Notes under the pieces: generated by a model
What the model was told of the DNA's origin: nothing
The model's database searches: none
What the model saw: only the letters and a program-made list of their open reading frames with translations
Made by a program: the position numbers and the translations under genes
Assembly (NCBI GenBank): GCA_963771885.1
Contig: CAVYVF010000012.1
Location: forward strand, 1 to 14,827
DNA length: 14,827 nucleotides
Source: Candidatus Bathyarchaeota archaeon
Lineage (GTDB): Archaea > Thermoproteota > Bathyarchaeia > TCS64
Direction of reading: 5' to 3'
In this document: positions 558-14,827 of the stretch, piece after piece
Layout: each line of letters starts with the position of its first letter
How positions within the stretch are numbered: position 1 is the stretch's first letter

Positions 558-1783
558 TTACTCTTCGTTTCTTTTCGTTTTTAGCCTCGTTCTTCTTCCG
601 GGCTTCCAGGTTCCCTTTTCGTATTCTGTTAGTATTCGTGTTAGGTTCCGATGGTACTGCTGGCTATGGCGCCCCACTCATACGACTCTGCTCGAAGTTG
701 CGGCCTCGTCTCTGAGGCGGCGTGCGTATGCAGGGTCGGTGATGACTCTGCGGATGCCCCCCGCTATCGATTCGGGAGTGTTGTAGATGAATGTGGCGGT
801 TTTATCGTGCTCTAGGATCTCTCCTAGGCCACCTGCGCCTGTGGTCACTATGGGGGCGCCGGCGGCCATTGCTTCGAGGGCGACTATGCCGAATGGCTCG
901 TAGAGGCTCGGTATGACGCAAGCGTCTGCTGTTCTGAATAATCCTCTGATGGTCTCGGTTTCTAGGAAGCCAGTCACGTATACTCTCTAGGCTAGGCCGA
1001 GTTCGTTGACGCGACGGATAAGCTCCTCTTTGAGATATCCTTCGCCGACCACGATGAGTTTCATGTTTAGGTCTCGTAGGTGTTGGGTAGCCTCGATAAG
1101 GTTCTGGACTCCCTTCTCTTGGACGAGTCTGCCGACGTATAGCACGAGTTTCTCTTCGGGTGCGGCGAACTTGCTTCTGCTCTCCATTAAGTTGGTCGGT
1201 GCCTTGAATGGTTTGAGGTCTATTCCATTGGGGACTACATCGAGCCTGTAGTCTGAGGTTTTGAAGGCTGAGGTAATCTCTTTGGTCATGTACTTGCTGC
1301 AGCATATTACCCTCCACCCTCTTGGATCAGCCAGGACTCTGTGGAGCTCATACATCTGCTGGTACTCGTTGTGGACTCCGTTTCTCCTGCCATGCTCCCG
1401 TGGAGTGTATGGTCGCGGCGAGCGGTATTCGGAACATGTGCTTTAGACCGATGGAGGCGCTTGCGACGAGCCAGTCGTGTGCGTGTATCAGGTTGATCTT
1501 GTGCCTGGGGATTTAGGGAGGATGCTTGCCTCTTTCAGGTTCACGTTCATCATTGATACCCAGGTGGCGAAGTCGGGGGTCGGGTACCCGTAGGAGTCGA
1601 TGCGGTGAACCTCTACGCCGTCGACGTCCTCATCGCTTTCGGCGCCGGGGAAGTCGCAGGTGGCTACGTGTACCTCGACGCCCTTCTTCACGAGTGCGCG
1701 TGATAGCTCGTAAACGTGGGGTGCGATACCGCCGACTACTGCGGGCGGCATCTTGCCGCAAACAGCAGCATCAATACCCTCAC
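558..1783 (-). CDS. GT4 glycosyltransferase, full two-domain (~405 aa), possibly alpha-glucan/glycogen related; frameshifted in this sequence
   Basis: Joins ORFs 1488-1751, 987-1355 and 678-977 plus a C-terminal frame (ESYEWGAIASSTIG..RILTEYEKGTWKPG..*). Motifs VVGGIAPHV, HAHDW, YVGRLVQEKG, PSLYEPFGIVALEAMAAG (EX7E). GTG start at 1783 inferred from the right-arm copy. Confidence 0.9.
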
Positions 1784-1793
1784 GCTGGCGCGA

Positions 1794-2423
1794 TTATAAA
1801 CACACCTCCCTTGAGCGGCTGACGCGTAGCAGTCCAGCGTCTTCTTGATCTCATCTGGTTTTCCCGATGGAATGGCCACGACCTTCTCCTCGGGTGTGTT
1901 GTAGCCTTCGATGGGCAGCCTCCTCATCTGCTCGTTTTTAACGACGATGAGATCCAATTCGAGAATCCCCATCGCCTCTAGTCCCCTGAATGCAGGAGCT
2001 GAGCGCATAGGTTGAGCCGGGCTGAGCGCTGCTCCTCTAGGCTGTGAAGGGTGAAGACGAATGGGAGTCCGTGGGCTCTCTTGAGGCTGACGCCGGCTGG
2101 GACAAAGTGCCAATCCTGAACGTCTAGCACGTAGCCAGTGTCCGGTTTCTCGTAGTATATGTCGGAGACAATCCTCTCCATCTCTGCGTTGAAAGAGAGG
2201 CACCACGTCAACGCCGAATCTGTGACTTGACGGGGTTGGATGCCCAATAGATGTCTAGCAGTTCCCCCTTCTTTTCGTGTAGGAACCCGGAGTCATGGCA
2301 TGTGACGACTCGGACGGGGACTTCGCATTGTTAAGCCCTGTAGCTAAAGCTGTCTACGTAGTGGGATAGGTCGCCGACGATGTTCGGAGGGTACTCCCAC
2401 GTCAGTATCACTGGGGTCAACAT
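1794..2423 (-). CDS. Stand-alone GT4 N-terminal-domain protein (~208 aa), left copy, frameshifted
   Basis: Reverse complement of 13256-13881: M(L)TPVILTWEYPPNIVGDLSHY..VQDWHF..TLHSLEEQR..LIVVKNEQM..SAAQGRCV. Pieces appear in ORFs 1978-2247 and 1736-2206. Confidence 0.8.
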
Positions 2424-2437
2424 GGCTAACGAATCCG

Positions 2438-2703
2438 TTATGTATAGAGTTATGATACGCGGATAATGCCTCTGCCGGTGAGGTTATAGTAGCTTGGTCC
2501 CGGATTTCTCGGTGTATTCGAGATAGCCTGAGGCGAGCTGGCTCTAGATGATATCCTCAAGTTCCTCCCTATTCATCTCGGTCATTTCGACTAGCTCGTC
2601 GAGGGATTTTCCGGGTTTTCCCGACTACGGCACCGACGTTGTGTAGGAACACGAGTAGCTTCTGGTGGGATGTATGCTCGCCTCTGCTCATCTTACGGAT
2701 CAT
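2438..2703 (-). CDS. Small winged-helix-like protein, left copy (indels)
   Basis: Reverse complement of 12978-13241: MIRKMSRGEHTSHQKLLVFLHNVGAVVG.., with an extra base in a G/A run near 2620. Confidence 0.75.
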
Positions 2704-2769
2704 CTTTTGATTGGGATATTTAGGTTATGGACGCGGATGCTGTTGCGAGCGAGTATGGTAGTTAAAAGC

Positions 2770-2787
2770 TTATCAATCGATCGATAA
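2770..2787. promoter_or_regulatory. Imperfect 18-bp palindrome next to a TATA-like box upstream of the wHTH-GT4 operon (left copy)
   Basis: TTATCAATCGATCGATAA has one mismatched pair. On the minus strand it is followed by GCTTTTAAC. Identical in the right arm although the upstream flanking DNA is diverged. Confidence 0.6.
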
Positions 2788-2939
2788 TTGCTCCGCGAAA
2801 AATATATTATTAATCCATAAATCGTATACCTGCAATACAACTCTCTAGTTTTGTCGTAAGATCCATACTCCCAAATTACGACACCAGCAATGGGGTCGAA
2901 AGACCCCCATTATTCAAATCGCGCACACGATTTTACCAG

Positions 2940-5175: not shown

Positions 5176-5339
5176 TGGTTTTAATGAGTCTTTTTTAATT
5201 TAATCGCGCGCCTCTTCTCCAGCGCGCGCGGTCTACGTGACTGAAGTCTGGAGGGAAAGCTTGCTGATCAGCTCATTCGAGTTCAGGACAACAGAATACT
5301 AACCATCGCGTGCACATATTTTGATGTACGGAATACACT

Positions 5340-5357
5340 TGTATACAAATGTAAACA
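5340..5357. promoter_or_regulatory. Operator-like motif, copy 1
   Basis: TGTATACA-AA-TGTAAACA, 66 nt upstream of ATG 5424, preceded by a partial third unit (AATACA-CT). Confidence 0.75.
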
Positions 5358-5423
5358 TCAATGATTTACCGCCACTTCTCTGAATAAAAAAACGCGCAAT
5401 GCGCATGCATCGGTGAGAGAAAA

Positions 5424-5681
5424 ATGAAGTGGAAATATGCTATCCAGTATGGACAGGTCAAGCCTGGCTGGACCTTCGAACAGATCGAAAAAGACATGGC
5501 GAAGTATAAGGCCGAGGTGGAGAAAAAGGGATTCAAAGTTGTGTTCTGGGGACACCCCTACGGTGTTACCGAGGGTATGATCACGGTTCTAGACGTAGAA
5601 GGCCACATGGACGATTATGTCAGCCTCAACGTTCCAGCGCCGTGGTTGGAAGGCCGAACAAATTTCGTCATGGTTCACTGA
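5424..5681 (+). CDS. Small hypothetical alpha/beta protein, WGxPY family (paralogue of 8962-9249)
   Basis: 85 aa, GGTGA ribosome site, T-rich tract downstream; segment KVVFWGHPYGVTEGMITVLDV. Confidence 0.85.
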   Translation: MKWKYAIQYGQVKPGWTFEQIEKDMAKYKAEVEKKGFKVVFWGHPYGVTEGMITVLDVEGHMDDYVSLNVPAPWLEGRTNFVMVH

Positions 5682-5732
5682 GGTAACTTTTCCTGTTTTT
5701 TCAGATAAGCATAGTACAAAGTTGGCGCGCTC

Positions 5733-6344
5733 TTACATAGTCTCTTCCCTGAGCTTCACCTGGGATCCACAGTTTTTACAGGCGTAGATGTTTCCTCCGA
5801 ACACCTGCTTCTTCTCCACGACGCAATCCCTGCATACTTGACCACAGCGGGGGCAGTGAAATGAGACCTTACCCCATTTAGGTGGCATACCACCACTGGC
5901 CTCCTTTAGCCTCAGATAGTCGGTGAAGAAGGTGTCGTAACAGTTACTACATGTCTTCGAGACAAGCTCGTCCCTTGGCTTATCCCCCTTAGCCATCCTG
6001 TCCACACAGCTCTTGCATGTTATGTATGCAAACTTGCCACATATCGAACAGTCTTGTCCATTCGCCTTCAAGCAGCTCTTGCACACGTATCCATCCGGGT
6101 TAAGTAATGACACGCAGTCCTGGCAGAGATCATATTTGCCACATTTCATGCATCGTATGCCGGCTCCGGGTTCAACCGCTTTGCCGCATTGCGGGCAATT
6201 GTGGCTTACAACGTCATGTCGCTGTACATCTGGTCTGACGAAGTTAAACAATGTGCTGCAGTTTTTACACCTATACTGGTCCGGCGCAGTAGAGGTTACG
6301 TGGGGGGATCCGCAGTAAGGGCAATTCACCTTCGAAACTGACAA
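5733..6344 (-). CDS. Cys-rich multi zinc-ribbon/zinc-finger protein
   Basis: 203 aa with 12 CxxC pairs and no CxxCH; TTG start with GAGGT upstream. Confidence 0.85.
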   Translation of the reverse strand: MSVSKVNCPYCGSPHVTSTAPDQYRCKNCSTLFNFVRPDVQRHDVVSHNCPQCGKAVEPGAGIRCMKCGKYDLCQDCVSLLNPDGYVCKSCLKANGQDCSICGKFAYITCKSCVDRMAKGDKPRDELVSKTCSNCYDTFFTDYLRLKEASGGMPPKWGKVSFHCPRCGQVCRDCVVEKKQVFGGNIYACKNCGSQVKLREETM

Positions 6345-6421
6345 GTATGGCTACCTCGCTGATTCTTCAGCTATTAACTGCTTATAACTTCTATTGCGCG
6401 CGGCACAGCGACACGTTGAAA

Positions 6422-6856
6422 TTAAGCCGCTATTTTATTCAGCTCGCTCTGGACGATGGCGGGCATTACTGGCCCGATGAAGAAGAATACTAGGAACCAG
6501 AGCAGCGAGTTGTCGTCTCTCTTCACGTATTCTGAAAAACCCTCACTGTATCGGTACAACCAGTATATGTTCGCAATTGGGATGAAAATGAGGATAGACG
6601 TTGGGATCTGTGCTCCCATGTCATTCATCTCGTGTTTAGTTTTGTACATCCAGTAGAGGAAGTAGATTCCAAAGGTTACGATTCCGAGGATATACACTAG
6701 CACTATGTTCCTCTTTGGAATAGGGTAGCGCATACGGGGGTTAGTTTCTGTTTGCTGTGGGGCTGATTCCACTCTGAAGCCGCATTTGGGGCAGTACACC
6801 GATTTGGCGTCGATCTCTGTACCACATTTTGAGCAATACTTTGTGTTTCTCTCCAT
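6422..6856 (-). CDS. Zinc-ribbon + DUF4234-like membrane protein
   Basis: YCSKCG..YCPKCG ribbon, then LGIVTFGIYFLYWMYK..E..YWLY..Q-ELN, typical of DUF4234. Confidence 0.85.
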   Translation of the reverse strand: MERNTKYCSKCGTEIDAKSVYCPKCGFRVESAPQQTETNPRMRYPIPKRNIVLVYILGIVTFGIYFLYWMYKTKHEMNDMGAQIPTSILIFIPIANIYWLYRYSEGFSEYVKRDDNSLLWFLVFFFIGPVMPAIVQSELNKIAA

Positions 6857-7022
6857 GGGAATCGCTTTTTCTATTTATTCGTGAGTATTAAAATGAGATC
6901 AGTCTAGTGTGGTATAATTTGACCTGTCATTCTCTGTGTCTCGTGCGTATGCGATGAGCCGCACTGGTGACGCGTGAGTATCTTAACATGCGTGTGAGCG
7001 CGAAATAATGTATGAATAGTTT

Positions 7023-7040
7023 TGTTTACATCTGTATACA
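7023..7040. promoter_or_regulatory. Operator-like motif, copy 2 (reverse orientation)
   Basis: TGTTTACA-TC-TGTATACA followed by TAC-TTTATTAA (TATA-like), in the divergent gap between 6856(-) and 7186(+). Confidence 0.75.
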
Positions 7041-7185
7041 TACTTTATTAATAATATTTCAATTAAAAAGTCCTATTCGATGATTCTGTGTTTCTTATAC
7101 GAGCGATGAGTTCGCGCATTGCTCGATTCTGGCACCGTTCCTTCGACAATTTGTTGTTGAATGTGGATTTCCCGAGGTTAATGAA

Positions 7186-8409
7186 ATGATGAATAATGGC
7201 GAAAAAAGGGTGGTTACAGCGCTTACACTAACGAACGTCGCTAGCCAACCTATGAGCATCCTAATTAGTCTACTTCTAATTGAGATAAGCCAAACTTACA
7301 ATGTATCGGTGGGATTAGCAGGGCATATAAAAACCCTATCCACTGGGATATCTATCTTAATTGCGTTATTAGTCGGCGCGTTAAGCATAAGATATAATCA
7401 TAAATCGCTCCTGTTACTAGGTCTAGCGTTTTTAGCAACCGCCGCATTAGGGTGCTATCTGGCTCCAAGTTTCGAGTTTCTGATAATTGCCTACTCTTTT
7501 ACAGGGATATCTTTTGCACTGATCTCTCCAATGAGTAGAACCCTGATAGGCGAATTGTTGCCCAGAGACAAGAGGGTGAACGCGATGGGAATGATCATCG
7601 CAGGATACGCCCTCGCATACCTATTCGGCTCACCAGCAATAGGATATTTAGCAGGTATAGGCGGTTGGAGATTTCCACTTATTACCCTAATTTTACCGAT
7701 AACGCTAATCGCAATGATTTATGCCTACATGATACTCCCAAAAAACGAGGTGGGGCCTAAAAACTCGTTAGGCTCCTTCAAAGTCGGATTCAGAGAGGTC
7801 CTGAGCAATCGATCTGCATTATCATGCCTTACAGGGGGATTGCTCGCGCAAATCTCGTTAATAATTATTTTAACATATAATGCATCTTACTTTCGGCAAG
7901 TCTTCGGCTTCTCGCTTGTCACAGCTTCCTTGCTATCCATAGGAACTGCATTATCCTACATCTCTGGCAGCATGATAAGCGGTAAGCTATCGGAGTCTTT
8001 AGGCGTTAAAAACCTGGCCGTAATAGCCACTTTTTTACTTGGGGCATCAACCCTCGTGTATCTTAATCTCCCCCTTCTATACCCCGCAATCGCGTTATGT
8101 TTTCTAGCCTGCTTCTCGGCGGGTACCTGGGACGCATCCTCAAGCACACTTACACTTGAACAAGTTCCTCAGTACAGGGGGACGACGATGCCGCTCAACT
8201 CCGCGTCAATGAACATGGGCGGGTTTTTAGGGGCAAGCTTGGGGGGGTTAATTCTTGTGGGTCTAGGATATGGGGGGATAGGAGTCTTATTGGGGGGGAC
8301 CGCAGTCATCGCTTCTGCTGTTTATAGGGTTTTCACGGTGGATCCAAAAAGGGCGGCGAAACTGGTACTTGTTGAGAAGAAAGAGAAGATTGTTGCCCCC
8401 ATTCAATAA
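7186..8409 (+). CDS. Major facilitator superfamily transporter
   Basis: 407 aa, about 12 hydrophobic segments; motif-A-like GALSIRYNHK and GKLSESLGVK; GWR after the motif-C region. Confidence 0.93.
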   Translation: MMNNGEKRVVTALTLTNVASQPMSILISLLLIEISQTYNVSVGLAGHIKTLSTGISILIALLVGALSIRYNHKSLLLLGLAFLATAALGCYLAPSFEFLIIAYSFTGISFALISPMSRTLIGELLPRDKRVNAMGMIIAGYALAYLFGSPAIGYLAGIGGWRFPLITLILPITLIAMIYAYMILPKNEVGPKNSLGSFKVGFREVLSNRSALSCLTGGLLAQISLIIILTYNASYFRQVFGFSLVTASLLSIGTALSYISGSMISGKLSESLGVKNLAVIATFLLGASTLVYLNLPLLYPAIALCFLACFSAGTWDASSSTLTLEQVPQYRGTTMPLNSASMNMGGFLGASLGGLILVGLGYGGIGVLLGGTAVIASAVYRVFTVDPKRAAKLVLVEKKEKIVAPIQ

Positions 8410-8491
8410 TAATTGCATTTGTGCGCGGTGTTCAGGCAGATAGTGACTCGAGTGTATTCGATTTAATGTCGCTGTATTTTCCGGGCTAGAA

Positions 8492-8509
8492 TGTGTACAC
8501 TTGTAAACA
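8492..8509. promoter_or_regulatory. Operator-like motif, copy 3
   Basis: TGTGTACA-CT-TGTAAACA, 85 nt upstream of ATG 8595. Confidence 0.7.
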
Positions 8510-8594
8510 TAGGTCATTAATGATTATACGAATAATAAAAATCGCCATACATGTGACGCGTGGATGGCAGCTACCTGTGAATTGGTGTATTGAG

Positions 8595-8876
8595 ATGAAG
8601 TTCATCGGATATTGGAAGTATGATGATCCCCAACTAGCAATCGACGCATGGAAAACCTCGCTGGATAAGAGAAATAAACACCCTGACAACTACCCGAAGA
8701 CAATATTTGGACCCTTTCAATTCAATGGCGGAACCAACGGCTTTACATGCTTCGAAGTTGACAAGCCCGAACAGATAACCTACCTCCAGACTGATTACGA
8801 AGGTGTGATGACGTGGGAGTTTTACCCAATCATCGAGAACCAGAAAACTGCTGAGATATACATGAAAAACAAGTAA
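8595..8876 (+). CDS. DUF3303-like small protein (93 aa)
   Basis: Start moved to ATG 8595 (GGTG at 8584-8587). MKFIGYW..GGTNGFTCFEVDKPEQI..WEFYPII resembles the DUF3303 pattern (recognised by eye). T7 tract downstream. Confidence 0.8.
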   Translation: MKFIGYWKYDDPQLAIDAWKTSLDKRNKHPDNYPKTIFGPFQFNGGTNGFTCFEVDKPEQITYLQTDYEGVMTWEFYPIIENQKTAEIYMKNK

Positions 8877-8893
8877 CGACCATTTATTTCTCC

Positions 8894-8941
8894 TTTTTTT
8901 ATAAATGCAAGCGTCGAGCTAGACGGGAGTCATAAAAAAAA
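8894..8941. terminator. Oligo-T terminators of two convergent genes
   Basis: T7 at 8894-8900 (+, after 8876) and A8 at 8934-8941 (T8 on minus, after 8962). Confidence 0.55.
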
Positions 8942-8961
8942 CGGCGACAGGCTAGTGTTAC

Positions 8962-9249
8962 CTACTGGGATATGATCATTGTTTTAGCGTATTCGATAAA
9001 CTCGGGGTCGATGTGGTATAACTCCATCGCGACTTTTCCGAATTCGTCAAGTGAGAGATCAGTTTCGACCCCAATGACGATCTGCTCAACCGTATAGTAT
9101 GGGCTTCCCCATGCAACGATCTTCATCTTGTGCTTGCTGAGAATCTCCTTTGCTTTCGATGCCCAACCTTGGAAGTACTTGTTGTCGGTTAGATTCTTCT
9201 TGAAGGCGCCTTCTGTCATCTTTACAAACCATAGATATACAAACTTCAT
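8962..9249 (-). CDS. Small hypothetical alpha/beta protein, WGxPY family (paralogue of 5424-5681)
   Basis: 95 aa; KIVAWGSPYYTVEQIVIGVETDLSLDEF; GAGGGTGG ribosome site. Confidence 0.85.
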   Translation of the reverse strand: MKFVYLWFVKMTEGAFKKNLTDNKYFQGWASKAKEILSKHKMKIVAWGSPYYTVEQIVIGVETDLSLDEFGKVAMELYHIDPEFIEYAKTMIISQ

Positions 9250-9306
9250 GCGGTTCCACCCTCTTAGGGTGGTATGATTTCGCTCCTCTTTCCTAAATCA
9301 AATGTA

Positions 9307-9324
9307 TGTATACAAGTGTAAACA
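9307..9324. promoter_or_regulatory. Operator-like motif, copy 4
   Basis: TGTATACA-AG-TGTAAACA, 57 nt upstream of the minus-strand ATG at 9249. Confidence 0.75.
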
Positions 9325-9430
9325 TTAGCGCGCTTCCCCATACCAAAAAACAGATGTGGATCGAGGGCAGCAAACAGTGAGCAAGCACCCCAAGGAGAGT
9401 GTGCGCAGAAAGACCATTTGACTTGTGCAG

Positions 9431-11996: not shown

Positions 11997-12890
11997 AAAA
12001 CTCAATAATAAAGCACGCCTCGCACGCAATCAAAGAATCGATAGGCGAGACTCGCCACACGTACGCGATCACTGATCTACTCTTTTTCTACAACTGCGCG
12101 CAACTTACCCCCTAAAACATGTGGTGTAACCAACCGGCAACGCCTCAATCCCTATTCAAATTTCAGAACATTTGTTCGCTAAACCAGGTTAATAGCACCC
12201 CGTCACCAGTGTCCGCCTATGCAGAAGCCAGAAAGCCAATACCTAGCAGATCCCGCTTTCCCTTCAAAGCTACAACAAGGCCATCCGCTCCCAGTTAAAA
12301 TCAGAAGACCTCCGAATGATCTCGCTGTTCGGACTAACATACTACATGTCGCTGTTCTCCTCCGAGTAGCCGAAGATTTTCAGTGCCCTAGACTTGATGG
12401 CGAACGCTGTCAAGATCAGCGCGCGCATGCATTTGATCGGCTTATAGAGCCCCTGTTTTCGGAGGGAATGTTGGAGAGTGTTAGGATCTATGAGAATATT
12501 TAGAAGAAATACAAAATAGGGTGACTGGGAAGGGAAGTCAGTTCTGCGATTTTCTTGTTCTTGGTCTATATTATGCAGCCGACATGAACTTGTAAATTGA
12601 ATGTTGAACAAATGCATAGATAGTTGGTCAACCATGTTAAGAAACTCGTCCTCCTAATTTCTCGCACATATATCCGAGGGACGACTCTTCTAGGCAAGAC
12701 TACCACAGGGACGTTTATGGGTTCAAAGGTACATCGGAGACAAGTTCAAAATACTAATGAGTATTGGGGTCTTTCGACCCCGTTGCAGGTGTCGTAATTC
12801 GGGAGTATGGATCTTACGACAAAACTAGGGTCGGCAATTATAGGTATACGGTTTATGGATTTGTAATATCAATTTCTGATGCGTGGAGCA

Positions 12891-12910
12891 ATTATCGATC
12901 GATTGATAAT
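12891..12910. promoter_or_regulatory. Imperfect palindrome upstream of the wHTH-GT4 operon (right copy)
   Basis: ATTATCGATCGATTGATAAT followed by CTTTTAG. Confidence 0.6.
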
Positions 12911-12977
12911 CTTTTAGCTACCATACTCGCTCGCCAACAGCATCCCGCGTCCATAACATAAATATCCCAATCAAAAG

Positions 12978-13241
12978 ATGATCCATAAGATGAGCAGAGG
13001 CGAGCACACACCCCACCAGAAGCTACTTGTGTTCCTACACAACGTCGGCGCCGTAGTCGGAAAACCCGGAAAATCCCTCGACGAGCTAGTAAAAATCACC
13101 GAGATGAACAGGGAGGAACTTGAGAATATAATCGAGAGCCAGCTCGCCTCAGGCTACCTCGAATACACCGAGAAATCCGGGACCAACTACTACAACCTCA
13201 CCGGCAGAGGCATCATCCGCGTATCCTCACTCTATACATAA
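12978..13241 (+). CDS. Small winged-helix-like protein
   Basis: 87 aa; KSLDELVKITEMNREELENIIESQLASGYL..YYNLTGRG matches a helix-turn-helix + wing pattern. Confidence 0.8.
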   Translation: MIHKMSRGEHTPHQKLLVFLHNVGAVVGKPGKSLDELVKITEMNREELENIIESQLASGYLEYTEKSGTNYYNLTGRGIIRVSSLYT

Positions 13242-13255
13242 TGGAATCGCTAGCC

Positions 13256-13881
13256 ATGTTTACCCCAGTGATACTGACGTGGGAGTACCCCCCAAACATC
13301 GTCGGCGACCTATCCCACTACGTAGAAGCTTTAGCCACAGGGCTTAACAATGCGAAGGCCCCTGTTCGAGTCGTCACATGCCATGACTCCGGGTTCCTTC
13401 ACGAAAAGAAGGGGGAACTGCTAGACATATATTGGGCATCCAACCCCGTCAAGTCACAGATCTCGGTGTTGACGTGGTGCCTCTCATTCAACGCGGAGAT
13501 GGAGAGGATTGTCTCCGACATATACTACGAGAAACCGGACACCGGCTACGTGCTAGACGTTCAGGATTGGCACTTCGTCCCAGCCGGCGTCAGCCTCAAG
13601 AGAGCCCACGGACTCCCATTCGTCTTCACCCTTCACAGCCTAGAGGAGCAGCGCTCACCCGGCTCAACCTACGCGCTCAGCTCCTGCATCAGGGGACTAG
13701 AGGCGATGGGGATTCTCGAATCCGACTCATCGTCGTTAAAAACGAGCAGATGAGGAGGCTGGTCATCGAAGGCTACAACACACCCGAGGAGAAGGTCGTG
13801 GCCATTCCATCGGGAAAACCAGATGAGATCAAGAAGACGCTGGACTGCTACGCGTCAGCCGCTCAAGGGAGGTGTGTATAG
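13256..13881 (+). CDS. Stand-alone GT4 N-terminal-domain protein, right copy (one frameshift near 13725)
   Basis: ORF 13241-13753 joined to the end of ORF 13432-13881; the left copy reads through this point (GILELDLIVVKNEQ). ATG 13256 preferred because ATG 13241 is ACG in the left copy. Confidence 0.85.
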
Positions 13882-13892
13882 CACTGCGTAAC

Positions 13893-14827
13893 GTGAGGGT
13901 AATGATGCTGTCGTGGGAGTACCCACCTAGAGTAGTCGGCGGCATCGCACCCCACGTTTACGAGCTATCACGCGCACTCGTGAAGAAAGGCGTCGAGGTA
14001 CACGTAGCTACCTGCGACTTCCCCGGTGCTAATGCAATGAGGACGTCGACGGTGTAAAGGTACACCGCATAGACTCCTACGGGTACCCCACACCCGACTT
14101 CGCCTCCTGGGTATCGATGATGAACGTGAACCTCAAGAATGAAGCATCCTCCCTAATCCCCAGACACAACATCAACCTGATACACGCTCACGATTGGCTC
14201 GTCGCAAGCGCCTCAATCGGCGTAAAGCATATGTTCCGAATACCCCTCGTAGCGACCATACACTCCACGGAGCACGGCAGGAGAACGGAATCCATAACGA
14301 GTACCAGAGAATGATAAGCTCCACAGAGTCCTGGCTGATTAGGGAAGCTTGGAGGGTAATATGCTGTAGCAAGTATATGACCAAAGAGATCACCTCAGCC
14401 TTCAAAACCTCAGACTACAGGCTCGACGTGGTCCCCAACGGAATAGACCTCAAACCATTCAAGGCACCGACCAACCTAATGGAGAGCAGAGGCAAGTTCG
14501 CTGCACCCGAAGAGAAACTCGTGCTATACGTCGGTAGACTCGTCCAGGAGAAGGGAGTCCCAGAACCTTATCGAGGCTACCCGGGACAGGCGGGACCTAA
14601 ACATGAAACTCATCGTGGTCGGCGAAGGATATCTCAAAGAGGAACTAATCCGTCGCGTCAACGAACTCGCCCTGGCCAAAGGGTATACGTGACTGGCTTC
14701 CTAGAAACTGAGACCATCAGAGGACTATTCAGAACAGCAGACGCCTGCGTCATACCGAGCCTCTACGAGCCATTCGGCATAGTAGCCCTGGAAGCAATGG
14801 CCGCAGGCGCCCCCATAGTGACCTCCG
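13893..14827 (+). CDS. GT4 glycosyltransferase, right copy, frameshifted and truncated by window end
   Basis: MRVMMLSWEYPPRVVGGIAPHV, HAHDWLV, TIHSTEHGR, YVGRLVQEKG, PSLYEPFGIVALEAMAAGAP. Confidence 0.9.

What the first reader, a model, noticed from the sequence alone, without database searches (positions are those of the whole stretch)
5340..9324. Putative regulon: 18-bp operator TGTATACA-N2-TGTAAACA before three small alpha/beta proteins and an MFS transporter
Seen: four copies within 4 kb (5340 TGTATACAaaTGTAAACA; 7023 reverse complement TGTATACAgaTGTAAACA; 8492 TGTGTACActTGTAAACA; 9307 TGTATACAagTGTAAACA). Only one mismatch occurs across the 16 fixed positions. All are intergenic and 57-145 nt upstream of a start (5424, 7186, 8595, 9249). 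I saw none elsewhere in the window. The site is two near-palindromic octamers at 10-bp period (one helical turn) and works in either orientation. Known: TGTATACA-type cores resemble bacterial GntR-family boxes. Inference: one trans-acting regulator, with no obvious gene in the core, co-controls a transporter and a set of uncharacterised small proteins, i.e. a small-molecule uptake/handling module.
Basis: partly seen in the sequence, partly recalled or inferred. Interest (0 to 1): 0.85.

Follow-up and report, generated by a model that had tools for sequence, protein, structure and literature searches.

The report
Archaeal operator-promoter with RHH sensor regulator
An 18-base DNA site placed just before the TATA box marks about sixteen promoters in this uncultured archaeon, mostly in front of small proteins of unknown function, and is most likely the docking site of an undescribed sensor-type gene switch whose promoter module has been copied in front of new genes.

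Summary
The four sites are real (0 of 200 shuffles) and belong to a genome-wide set of 16 strong sites in a Bathyarchaeia genome. The element is longer than reported and directional: palindromic 18-mer, invariant T, degenerate BRE, TATA-like box, then a start 42-145 nt on. Eleven of 16 precede small ferredoxin-fold proteins; the rest precede two MFS transporters, two aminotransferases and a PLP decarboxylase. Among 70 family genomes it recurs in G016 (19 hits) and G012 (4). The best regulator candidate is an undescribed ribbon-helix-helix protein with a V4R/H-NOX-like domain. Its close copies occur in this genome and G016, lie beside sites and carry 10-bp-period half-site arrays. The geometry suggests activation. 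In G016 core promoters are near-identical before unrelated genes, and one promoter-capture chimera is visible. Against: G012 has sites but no such regulator was found; this genome's copy has a frame change; a genus-wide Lrp box shares the inner 10 bp. GntR is not supported. Binding is untested. This scan earlier noted similar RHH operator layouts in other archaea, but not this site.

The parts
5330..5337 (+). extra degenerate half-site, 10 bp upstream of the first operator
   Evidence: 3-mismatch overlapping match 5330-5347; PWM 16.2 bits
5340..5357 (+). operator 1 (two octamer half-sites, 10-bp period)
   Evidence: unchanged in a related strain contig whose 12 differences all lie elsewhere
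5358..5370 (+). invariant T, degenerate BRE position and TATA-like box
   Evidence: inferred, no TSS mapped
5424..5681 (+). 85-aa small protein, ferredoxin-like fold resembling ABM/DABB dimeric barrels; no Pfam match
   Evidence: 56% identical orthologue with the site in G016
7023..7040 (+). operator 2, halves swapped, facing the MFS gene
7041..7053 (+). invariant T, degenerate BRE position and TATA-like box
7186..8409 (+). MFS transporter (PF07690); substrate unknown
   Evidence: E 6e-46; all listed NCBIfam matches below their cut-offs
8492..8509 (+). operator 3
8510..8522 (+). invariant T, degenerate BRE position and TATA-like box
8595..8876 (+). 93-aa DUF3303 protein (PF11746)
   Evidence: E 1.2e-5, above cut-off
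8962..9249 (-). 95-aa small protein, distantly related to the 5424 family
   Evidence: hhalign 77% probability, E 2e-5; Atlas neighbours are unnamed Bathyarchaeota clusters and a DUF3303 cluster
9294..9306 (-). invariant T, degenerate BRE position and TATA-like box for the 9249 start
9307..9324 (-). operator 4, halves swapped, facing the 9249 start
8428..9429 (.). block of two convergent operator-gene units, absent as a unit in a related strain
   Evidence: one contig of run X1, depth 5.4, skips 8427-9430 and also 6954-8299

Best explanation
The 18-mer is an operator of two octamer half-sites, fixed 6-7 bp upstream of a TATA-like box whose BRE is degenerate (positions shown; function inferred). 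It is bound by an undescribed family of about 180-aa proteins with an N-terminal ribbon-helix-helix (RHH) domain and a C-terminal V4R/H-NOX-like domain (fold predicted; binding inferred). One RHH dimer sits on each half-site, two or more dimers line up on one helix face, and the proximal dimer helps TFB/TBP load on a promoter that cannot recruit them well alone, so the regulator acts mainly as an activator (inferred). A small ligand in the C-terminal domain, probably an amine, amino acid or aromatic compound, would set its activity (inferred from fold neighbours and from the target enzymes). The regulon lies in accessory DNA and changes membership by gain and loss of operator-promoter-gene units and by copying or capture of the promoter module (shown by sequence in G016 and strain X1).
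For: Sixteen sites score >=20.6 bits, then a gap; >=14 bits: 17 real against 1-2 in 5 shuffles (PWM trained on 13 of them). 14 of 16 overlap no ORF >=100 aa while 78% of the genome is in long ORFs. BRE half scores -3.9 (G000, n=15) and -5.2 bits (G016, n=16) against +3.6 for 43 of 45 tRNA promoters; TATA half stays positive. RHH identity: profile hits NikA 2ba3 E 1.4e-4, AvtR, omega, Arc; C-domain matches H-NOX Z 9.4, DmpR Z 9.0, PoxR Z 8.3. Close copies (>=80 bits) only in G000 and G016 of 71 genomes. In G016 4 of 5 family genes lie within 2.3 kb of a site, against 0 of 25 HTH_24 hits; in G000 3 of 4 within 1.7 kb, against 11% of low-GC windows. Half-site arrays lie upstream of all 4 close G016 genes and of G000 C3:6924 (read by eye). 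13 of 32 family genes have their own 10-bp-period octamer pair upstream, 0.55 expected. Core promoters >=80% identical in 19 of 66 pairs, 18 with proteins <25% identical; one chimera.
Against: No binding, TSS or expression measurement. G012 (95% complete) has 4 hits but no family member was found, although 2 of its sites are cut off just after the TATA position. The G000 copy at C3:6924 and the C10 paralogue each have a frame change near codon 100; frame changes are common in this assembly (16 of 112 bins), so error and pseudogene cannot be told apart. A genus-wide Lrp gene carries a box sharing positions 5-8 and 11-14. Co-occurrence rests on two related genomes. Most RHH proteins are repressors (PMC5569661, passages). 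Fold Z of 8-9 is near the level the tool calls common. Extra upstream half-sites are frequent in G016 (10 of 16) but rare in G000 (1 of 15).
Confidence: 0.6

Rival explanations
1. The regulator is the genus-wide Lrp/AsnC protein (G000 C23:527222-527680), activating Ptr2/LysM-style from just upstream of the BRE; the small proteins could be stand-alone RAM-like modulators.
For: Its own promoter and the neighbouring glutamine-synthetase promoter carry a palindrome with the same inner 10 bp. Present in G000, G016 and G012. Lrp activators bind a few bp upstream of the BRE and stand-alone RAM proteins exist (PMC2995911, passages). Targets include amino-acid enzymes.
Against: The Lrp is in 16 of 17 other genus genomes but the regulon in 2. 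Outer columns differ: position 2 is G in 27 of 31 regulon sites and 0 of 16 Lrp boxes; position 15 is T in 2 of 31 against 15 of 16; position 17 is C in 31 of 31 against 7 of 16. The Lrp box lies about one turn further from the TATA (read by eye). No AsnC ligand-domain Pfam match in any small target scanned.
Confidence: 0.17
2. Another factor reads the site (a regulator not identified here, or a regulator plus an alternative TFB that prefers the unusual BRE), and the RHH genes are targets, not the cause.
For: G012 lacks the RHH. G000 has five TFB paralogues. The invariant T19 and conserved positions 20-24 lie on one side only. Only two HTH families were scanned for rivals.
Against: No HTH_24 gene lies near G016 sites (0 of 25). 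Direct-repeat half-site arrays suit RHH dimers, and distant family members carry related arrays.
Confidence: 0.14
3. The element is mainly a recombination or cassette end (a small mobile repeat), conserved by copying, with little regulatory role.
For: Near-identical core promoters before unrelated genes in G016; two G000 sites lie 50-85 nt after tRNA 3' ends; units are lost as blocks in strain X1.
Against: In G000 the 18-mer is 82% identical between sites while the spacer after the TATA is 36% (tRNA control 29%) and flanks 26%, which means selection on the site itself. The X1 joints and the G016 chimera seam lie 60-120 nt away from the 18-mer, not in it. Fixed spacing to a TATA-like box.
Confidence: 0.07
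4. A GntR-family box.
For: Resemblance of the octamer to bacterial GntR/HutC boxes (recalled, not tested).
Against: No PF00392 match over the cut-off in G000, G016 or G012; control rings in 12 of 14 genomes.
Confidence: 0.02

Closest known systems
Cooperative RHH regulators with subsite arrays (Arc, CopG, omega, MetJ; archaeal-virus SvtR, F55, AvtR)
   Same: N-terminal RHH; tandem half-sites in phase; arrays at the regulator's own promoter. RHH dimers oligomerise along DNA and AvtR can activate (PMC5569661, passages).
   Different: Fused V4R/H-NOX-like domain; chromosomal regulon of 16-19 promoters; site upstream of a weak BRE, not over the promoter.
TFB-RF1 (PF1088) of Pyrococcus furiosus
   Same: Palindromic site just upstream of a weak BRE and TATA; activates by recruiting TFB (PMC5937170, passages). 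Works-like comparison only.
   Different: No relationship to TFB-RF1 was tested or is implied; different site; TFB-RF1 has two known targets.
Lrp-family activators Ptr2, LysM, Ss-LrpB
   Same: Site a few bp upstream of the BRE with constrained spacing (PMC2995911, passages); amino-acid-related targets.
   Different: Best candidate here is not HTH/RAM; the genus Lrp has its own distinct box.
V4R sensor domains of DmpR/PoxR and H-NOX domains
   Same: C-terminal domain fold: Z 9.0, rmsd 4.0, 122 aligned (6iy8); Z 8.3 (5fru); Z 9.4, rmsd 3.3, 103 aligned (4u99).
   Different: 6-7% identity; tied with BcsD and TRAPP subunits; ligand unknown; joined to RHH, not to an AAA+ domain.
Putative mobile promoters / promoter capture (PMC3575422, main text read)
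   Same: Highly similar upstream regions before unrelated genes in one genome.
   Different: Here the shared stretch is a complete operator-BRE-TATA unit tied to a candidate regulator; the shared core tested is 34 nt plus the 18-mer, near their 50-nt threshold.

Membership tests
RHH superfamily (candidate regulator) | N-terminal strand-helix-helix with alternating DNA-facing strand residues | tested here: met
   Profile hits NikA, AvtR, omega, Arc; members match RHH_1/RHH_4 weakly, 5 and 6 of 31; model aligns to PutA RHH Z 6.4, rmsd 1.5
RHH superfamily (candidate regulator) | Dimers bind phased subsites, including at own promoter | tested here: inconclusive
   Arrays upstream of family genes seen in sequence; binding not measurable
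V4R/H-NOX/TRAPP fold sensor domain | Fold match over the C-terminal domain | tested here: met
   Top rows of two structure searches are H-NOX, DmpR, PoxR, BcsD, TRAPP; Z 8-9, no Foldseek E <= 0.001
V4R/H-NOX/TRAPP fold sensor domain | Binds a small ligand or heme | not testable with these tools
   none
Weak-BRE activated promoters (TFB-RF1 type) | Operator directly upstream of a degenerate BRE and TATA | tested here: met
   (BRE half P about 2e-7 and 1e-8 against tRNA promoters; related sites are not independent)
Weak-BRE activated promoters (TFB-RF1 type) | Regulator recruits TFB and raises transcription | not testable with these tools
   needs in vitro transcription
GntR family | A GntR wHTH gene in genomes that carry the site | tested here: not met
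   0 of 3 genomes over cut-off; genomes 92-95% complete
Lrp/AsnC regulon | Site matches the box at the Lrp gene's own promoter | tested here: inconclusive
   Inner 8 fixed positions shared, outer positions 2, 15, 17 differ
Dimeric alpha+beta barrel proteins (ABM, DABB, YdhR, DUF3303) for the small targets | Ferredoxin-like strand-helix-strand-strand-helix-strand fold | tested here: met
   5424 model pLDDT 85; best rows ABM-type Z 8.8-8.9, tied with ribosomal S6; DUF3303 for 8595 and others; YdhR for G016 targets. Only one small protein was folded.
Dimeric alpha+beta barrel proteins (ABM, DABB, YdhR, DUF3303) for the small targets | Cofactor-free oxygenase or isomerase activity; dimer barrel | not tested
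   none
Known RNA families | Rfam match at gathering score | tested here: not met
   0 matches in the window and 3 G016 loci

The most novel reading that the evidence does not exclude
A ligand-sensing RHH-V4R activator, a class not described in archaea, controls a regulon that grows by copying a ready-made operator-BRE-TATA module in front of new genes at CG-rich seams. This repeatedly recruits members of a large, divergent family of small barrel-fold proteins, which act as a strain-variable toolkit for one class of small molecules.
Probability: 0.3. Interest if true: 0.78.

Novelty: new variant of a known kind. Interest (0 to 1): 0.55.

Why it matters
My searches found no described regulon or operator for Bathyarchaeia (open-access library only). 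This gives a defined operator, a candidate regulator of a new domain combination and a target list, all testable in vitro without culturing the organism. It groups about a dozen unannotated small proteins with amino-acid and amine enzymes under one signal, which is a handle on their function. The G016 promoters are a clear sequence record of regulon growth by promoter reuse in an archaeon.

Tried and rejected
Exact degenerate pattern over 41 genomes: 12 hits in G000, 0 of 17 same-genus genomes, one isolated hit in G035; misleading, because G016 uses a variant distal half-site. Complex prediction of the RHH dimer with TFB gave no verdict (score 0.12, mark 0.32) and is not used. Foldseek gave no match at E <= 0.001 for either model. 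The genome-contig scan with the close RHH alignment returned only three loci, all G016 copies, so there is no third genome for a co-occurrence test. Class-wide model search: besides G000 and G016 only four single weak hits in 149 other genomes, 47 candidates scored per genome. Atlas: RHH protein has only unnamed archaeal neighbours. Sigma-70 scan at chance level, 6 against 7.1. Rfam none. Of 23 sequencing runs only 4 were laid; parts without cover mean nothing, and the two RNA contigs on the 8595 and 8962 genes come from one run and do not show transcription. A shared leader motif in 10 homologue leaders gave no consensus structure. No paper holds 'DUF3303'. Earlier-findings look-ups by sequence and by relatives returned nothing.
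Full report
Observation. A third half-site overlaps the first at 5330. The window is contig C12 of genome G000. Earlier notes on this genome call it Bathyarchaeia, and the record titles of the closest regulator homologues say Candidatus Bathyarchaeota.

Genome-wide set. A matrix built from 13 sites finds 16 sites at 20.6 bits or more, then a gap; at 14 bits 17 real hits stand against 1-2 in each of 5 block shuffles. One of the 16 (C4) duplicates a C3 segment, so 15 are independent. Fourteen overlap no ORF of 100 aa or more; the other two overlap only an antisense ORF or an upstream extension of the target ORF, while 78% of the genome lies in long ORFs. All 16 lie in DNA of 44-52% GC, against 55-58% for the four large contigs. 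Eleven precede proteins of 80-113 aa (the C13 gene is broken). The other five precede a PLP decarboxylase, class I/II and class III aminotransferases and two MFS transporters. Weaker sites face an amidohydrolase and a divergent pair of 2-hydroxyacid dehydrogenases. Of 24 G000 ORFs related to the small targets, 12 have a site upstream and 12 do not.

Anatomy. Turned towards the gene, position 19 is T in 16 of 16 sites, positions 20-30 are partly conserved and end in an AT-rich box, and the far flank is random. A BRE-TATA matrix from 43 of 45 tRNA promoters places the TATA half at position 25 in 8 of 15 G000 and 10 of 16 G016 sites. The BRE half scores -3.9 and -5.2 bits against +3.6 for tRNA promoters (leave-one-out); the TATA half scores 2.2 and 3.9 against 6.6. 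Starts lie 42-145 nt after the 18-mer in the 11 cases measured. The site therefore abuts a promoter with a poor BRE, the layout of TFB-RF1-activated promoters (PMC5937170, passages) and of Lrp-family activators (PMC2995911, passages). Activation is inferred from this alone.

Relatives. A sequence model from 15 G000 and 4 G016 sites gave 18 hits in G000, 19 in G016, 4 in G012 and at most 2 weak hits in 8 others of 71 family genomes. Fifteen G016 hits are outside the training set; two pairs of them are near-duplicates. The search scored 101 candidates per genome and missed the training site at 5340, so negatives mean 'not found'. Shared targets include the 5424 orthologue (56%), the decarboxylase (42%) and DUF3303 proteins. 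Against broad conservation: 0 of 12 metagenome homologues of 5424 examined have the site (14 loci returned, two partial matches left out, two start positions only estimated), and 2 of 27 non-G000 loci with homologues of 8595 do, both in G016.

Candidate regulator. G000 C3:6924 encodes a protein flanked by a four-half-site array upstream and a strong site 9 nt after its end. An alignment of 31 family members hits NikA, AvtR, omega and Arc. The model (pLDDT 81) has an RHH N-terminus and a C-domain whose best matches are H-NOX, DmpR, BcsD, TRAPP and PoxR at Z 8.3-9.4. With the G016 copy as query, matches of 80 bits or more occur only in G016 and G000; weaker relatives occur in 34 more of the 71 genomes, including a partial 50% match at a G014 contig end. 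In G016, 4 of 5 family genes lie 83-2250 nt from a model hit, against 0 of 25 HTH_24 hits. In G000, 3 of 4 lie within 1.7 kb of a strong site; 11% of low-GC windows are within 3 kb of one, as are 2 of 15 HTH_24 hits, an Lrp-like pair beyond a tRNA. All four close G016 genes carry half-site arrays with the G016-type distal half (read by eye, only one scores high as a full 18-mer). One sits head-to-head with an operon of a small protein, a YdhR protein and a decarboxylase. Distant members have their own related octamer pair at 10-bp period: 13 of 32 genes against 0.55 expected. RHH dimers are known to line up on such arrays, and AvtR both activates and represses (PMC5569661, passages).

Evidence against. 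G012 has sites but no family member in two searches. The nearest G000 copy has a frame change; 16 of 112 tested bins of this assembly do too. The genus-wide Lrp gene and the neighbouring glutamine synthetase carry a palindrome with the same positions 5-8 and 11-14. That Lrp is present in 16 of 17 other genus genomes, and its box differs at positions 2, 15 and 17, so I rank it second. Five TFB paralogues leave room for a promoter-specific TFB.

Promoter reuse. In G000 the 18-mers are 82% alike but the spacer after the TATA only 36% (tRNA control 29%), so the site is kept by selection. In G016 the spacer is 51% alike, with 23% of 120 pairs at 75% or more. Over positions 19-52, 19 of 66 pairs among 12 elements are at least 80% identical and 18 of these precede proteins under 25% identical (11 G016 elements and one from G012, chosen for having a clear downstream gene). 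Since G000 promoters work without that spacer sequence, copying is the simpler reading. One G016 element carries the decarboxylase promoter, leader and first codons, then a 13-nt CG-rich seam, then a 4Fe-4S gene. One contig of run X1 (depth 5.4, pieces 96-100% alike) skips 6954-8299 and 8427-9430, removing three of the four window sites. CG seams as junctions were noted earlier for this genome.

Small proteins. The 5424 model (pLDDT 85) is ferredoxin-like; best rows are ABM-type cofactor-free oxygenases at Z 8.8-8.9, tied with ribosomal S6. 8962 is distantly related to 5424; 8595 is DUF3303 and shows no sequence link to 5424. Their chemistry is not shown. Given the co-regulated enzymes I favour ligand binding or cofactor-free chemistry on amines or aromatics, at low confidence.

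Literature. Searches for Bathyarchaeia with regulon terms (listing only: none of the 20 listed contains the taxon), with ribbon-helix-helix (4 papers with single mentions, not read), with promoter terms (none), for V4R plus RHH (one paper; passages unrelated) and for DUF3303 (none) found no description. The library holds open-access papers only and no supplements were read. Earlier scan notes describe similar RHH operator layouts in Thorarchaeota and other uncultured archaea; I had named the RHH candidate before seeing them and did not test them.

Verdict. A real, lineage-restricted regulon. Operator of a trans-acting factor about 0.9; RHH-V4R protein as that factor about 0.65; activation about 0.6 to 0.7. 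New variant of a known kind; interest 0.55.

Noticed in passing
window 843-2910 and 12763-14823: The contig ends are inverted copies of each other (91% over 2.1 kb), and 1-2797 also matches contig C13; the glycosyltransferase genes there are split. Strain mixing or an assembly effect.
   Followed up: partly
G000 C23:527680-528770 (L182, L183-L198): A separate palindrome is conserved upstream of an Lrp/EamA divergent pair and of a glutamine-synthetase gene across the genus: a small core regulon.
   Followed up: partly
L072-L074, L078, L086-L088, L091, L092, L094, L095, L159: Distant RHH-V4R genes, in the sister genus g8, carry their own two or three octamers at 10-bp period between TATA and start, a repressive autoregulation layout.
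   Followed up: partly
L048:1700-7200 (G000 C10:44700-50200): Cluster of tandem-doubled (about 200 aa) and single small alpha/beta proteins around an RHH-V4R paralogue and a 670-aa ArsR-like HTH protein, without a strong site.
   Followed up: no
G000 C2:203888 and C23:832824: Two sites lie about 50 and 85 nt after the 3' ends of tRNA-Pro and tRNA-Gln, at likely island borders.
   Followed up: no
L147:3664-3704, L144:6800-6840, L139, L146, L054-L059: A short conserved motif in the 5' leaders of several small-protein genes in G016 and in metagenome homologues; no consensus structure predicted; absent from the window's 5424 leader.
   Followed up: partly
G016 C13, C1, C20, C27, C28; G012 C82: Sites often form back-to-back pairs 30-31 bp apart with a half-site between them, serving two divergent genes.
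   Followed up: yes
window 5733-6344 and 6422-6856 (minus strand): Two zinc-ribbon proteins (one DUF4234) between the sites; the 7023 element does not face them.
   Followed up: partly
G000 C2, C22, C23: Five TFB paralogues.
   Followed up: no
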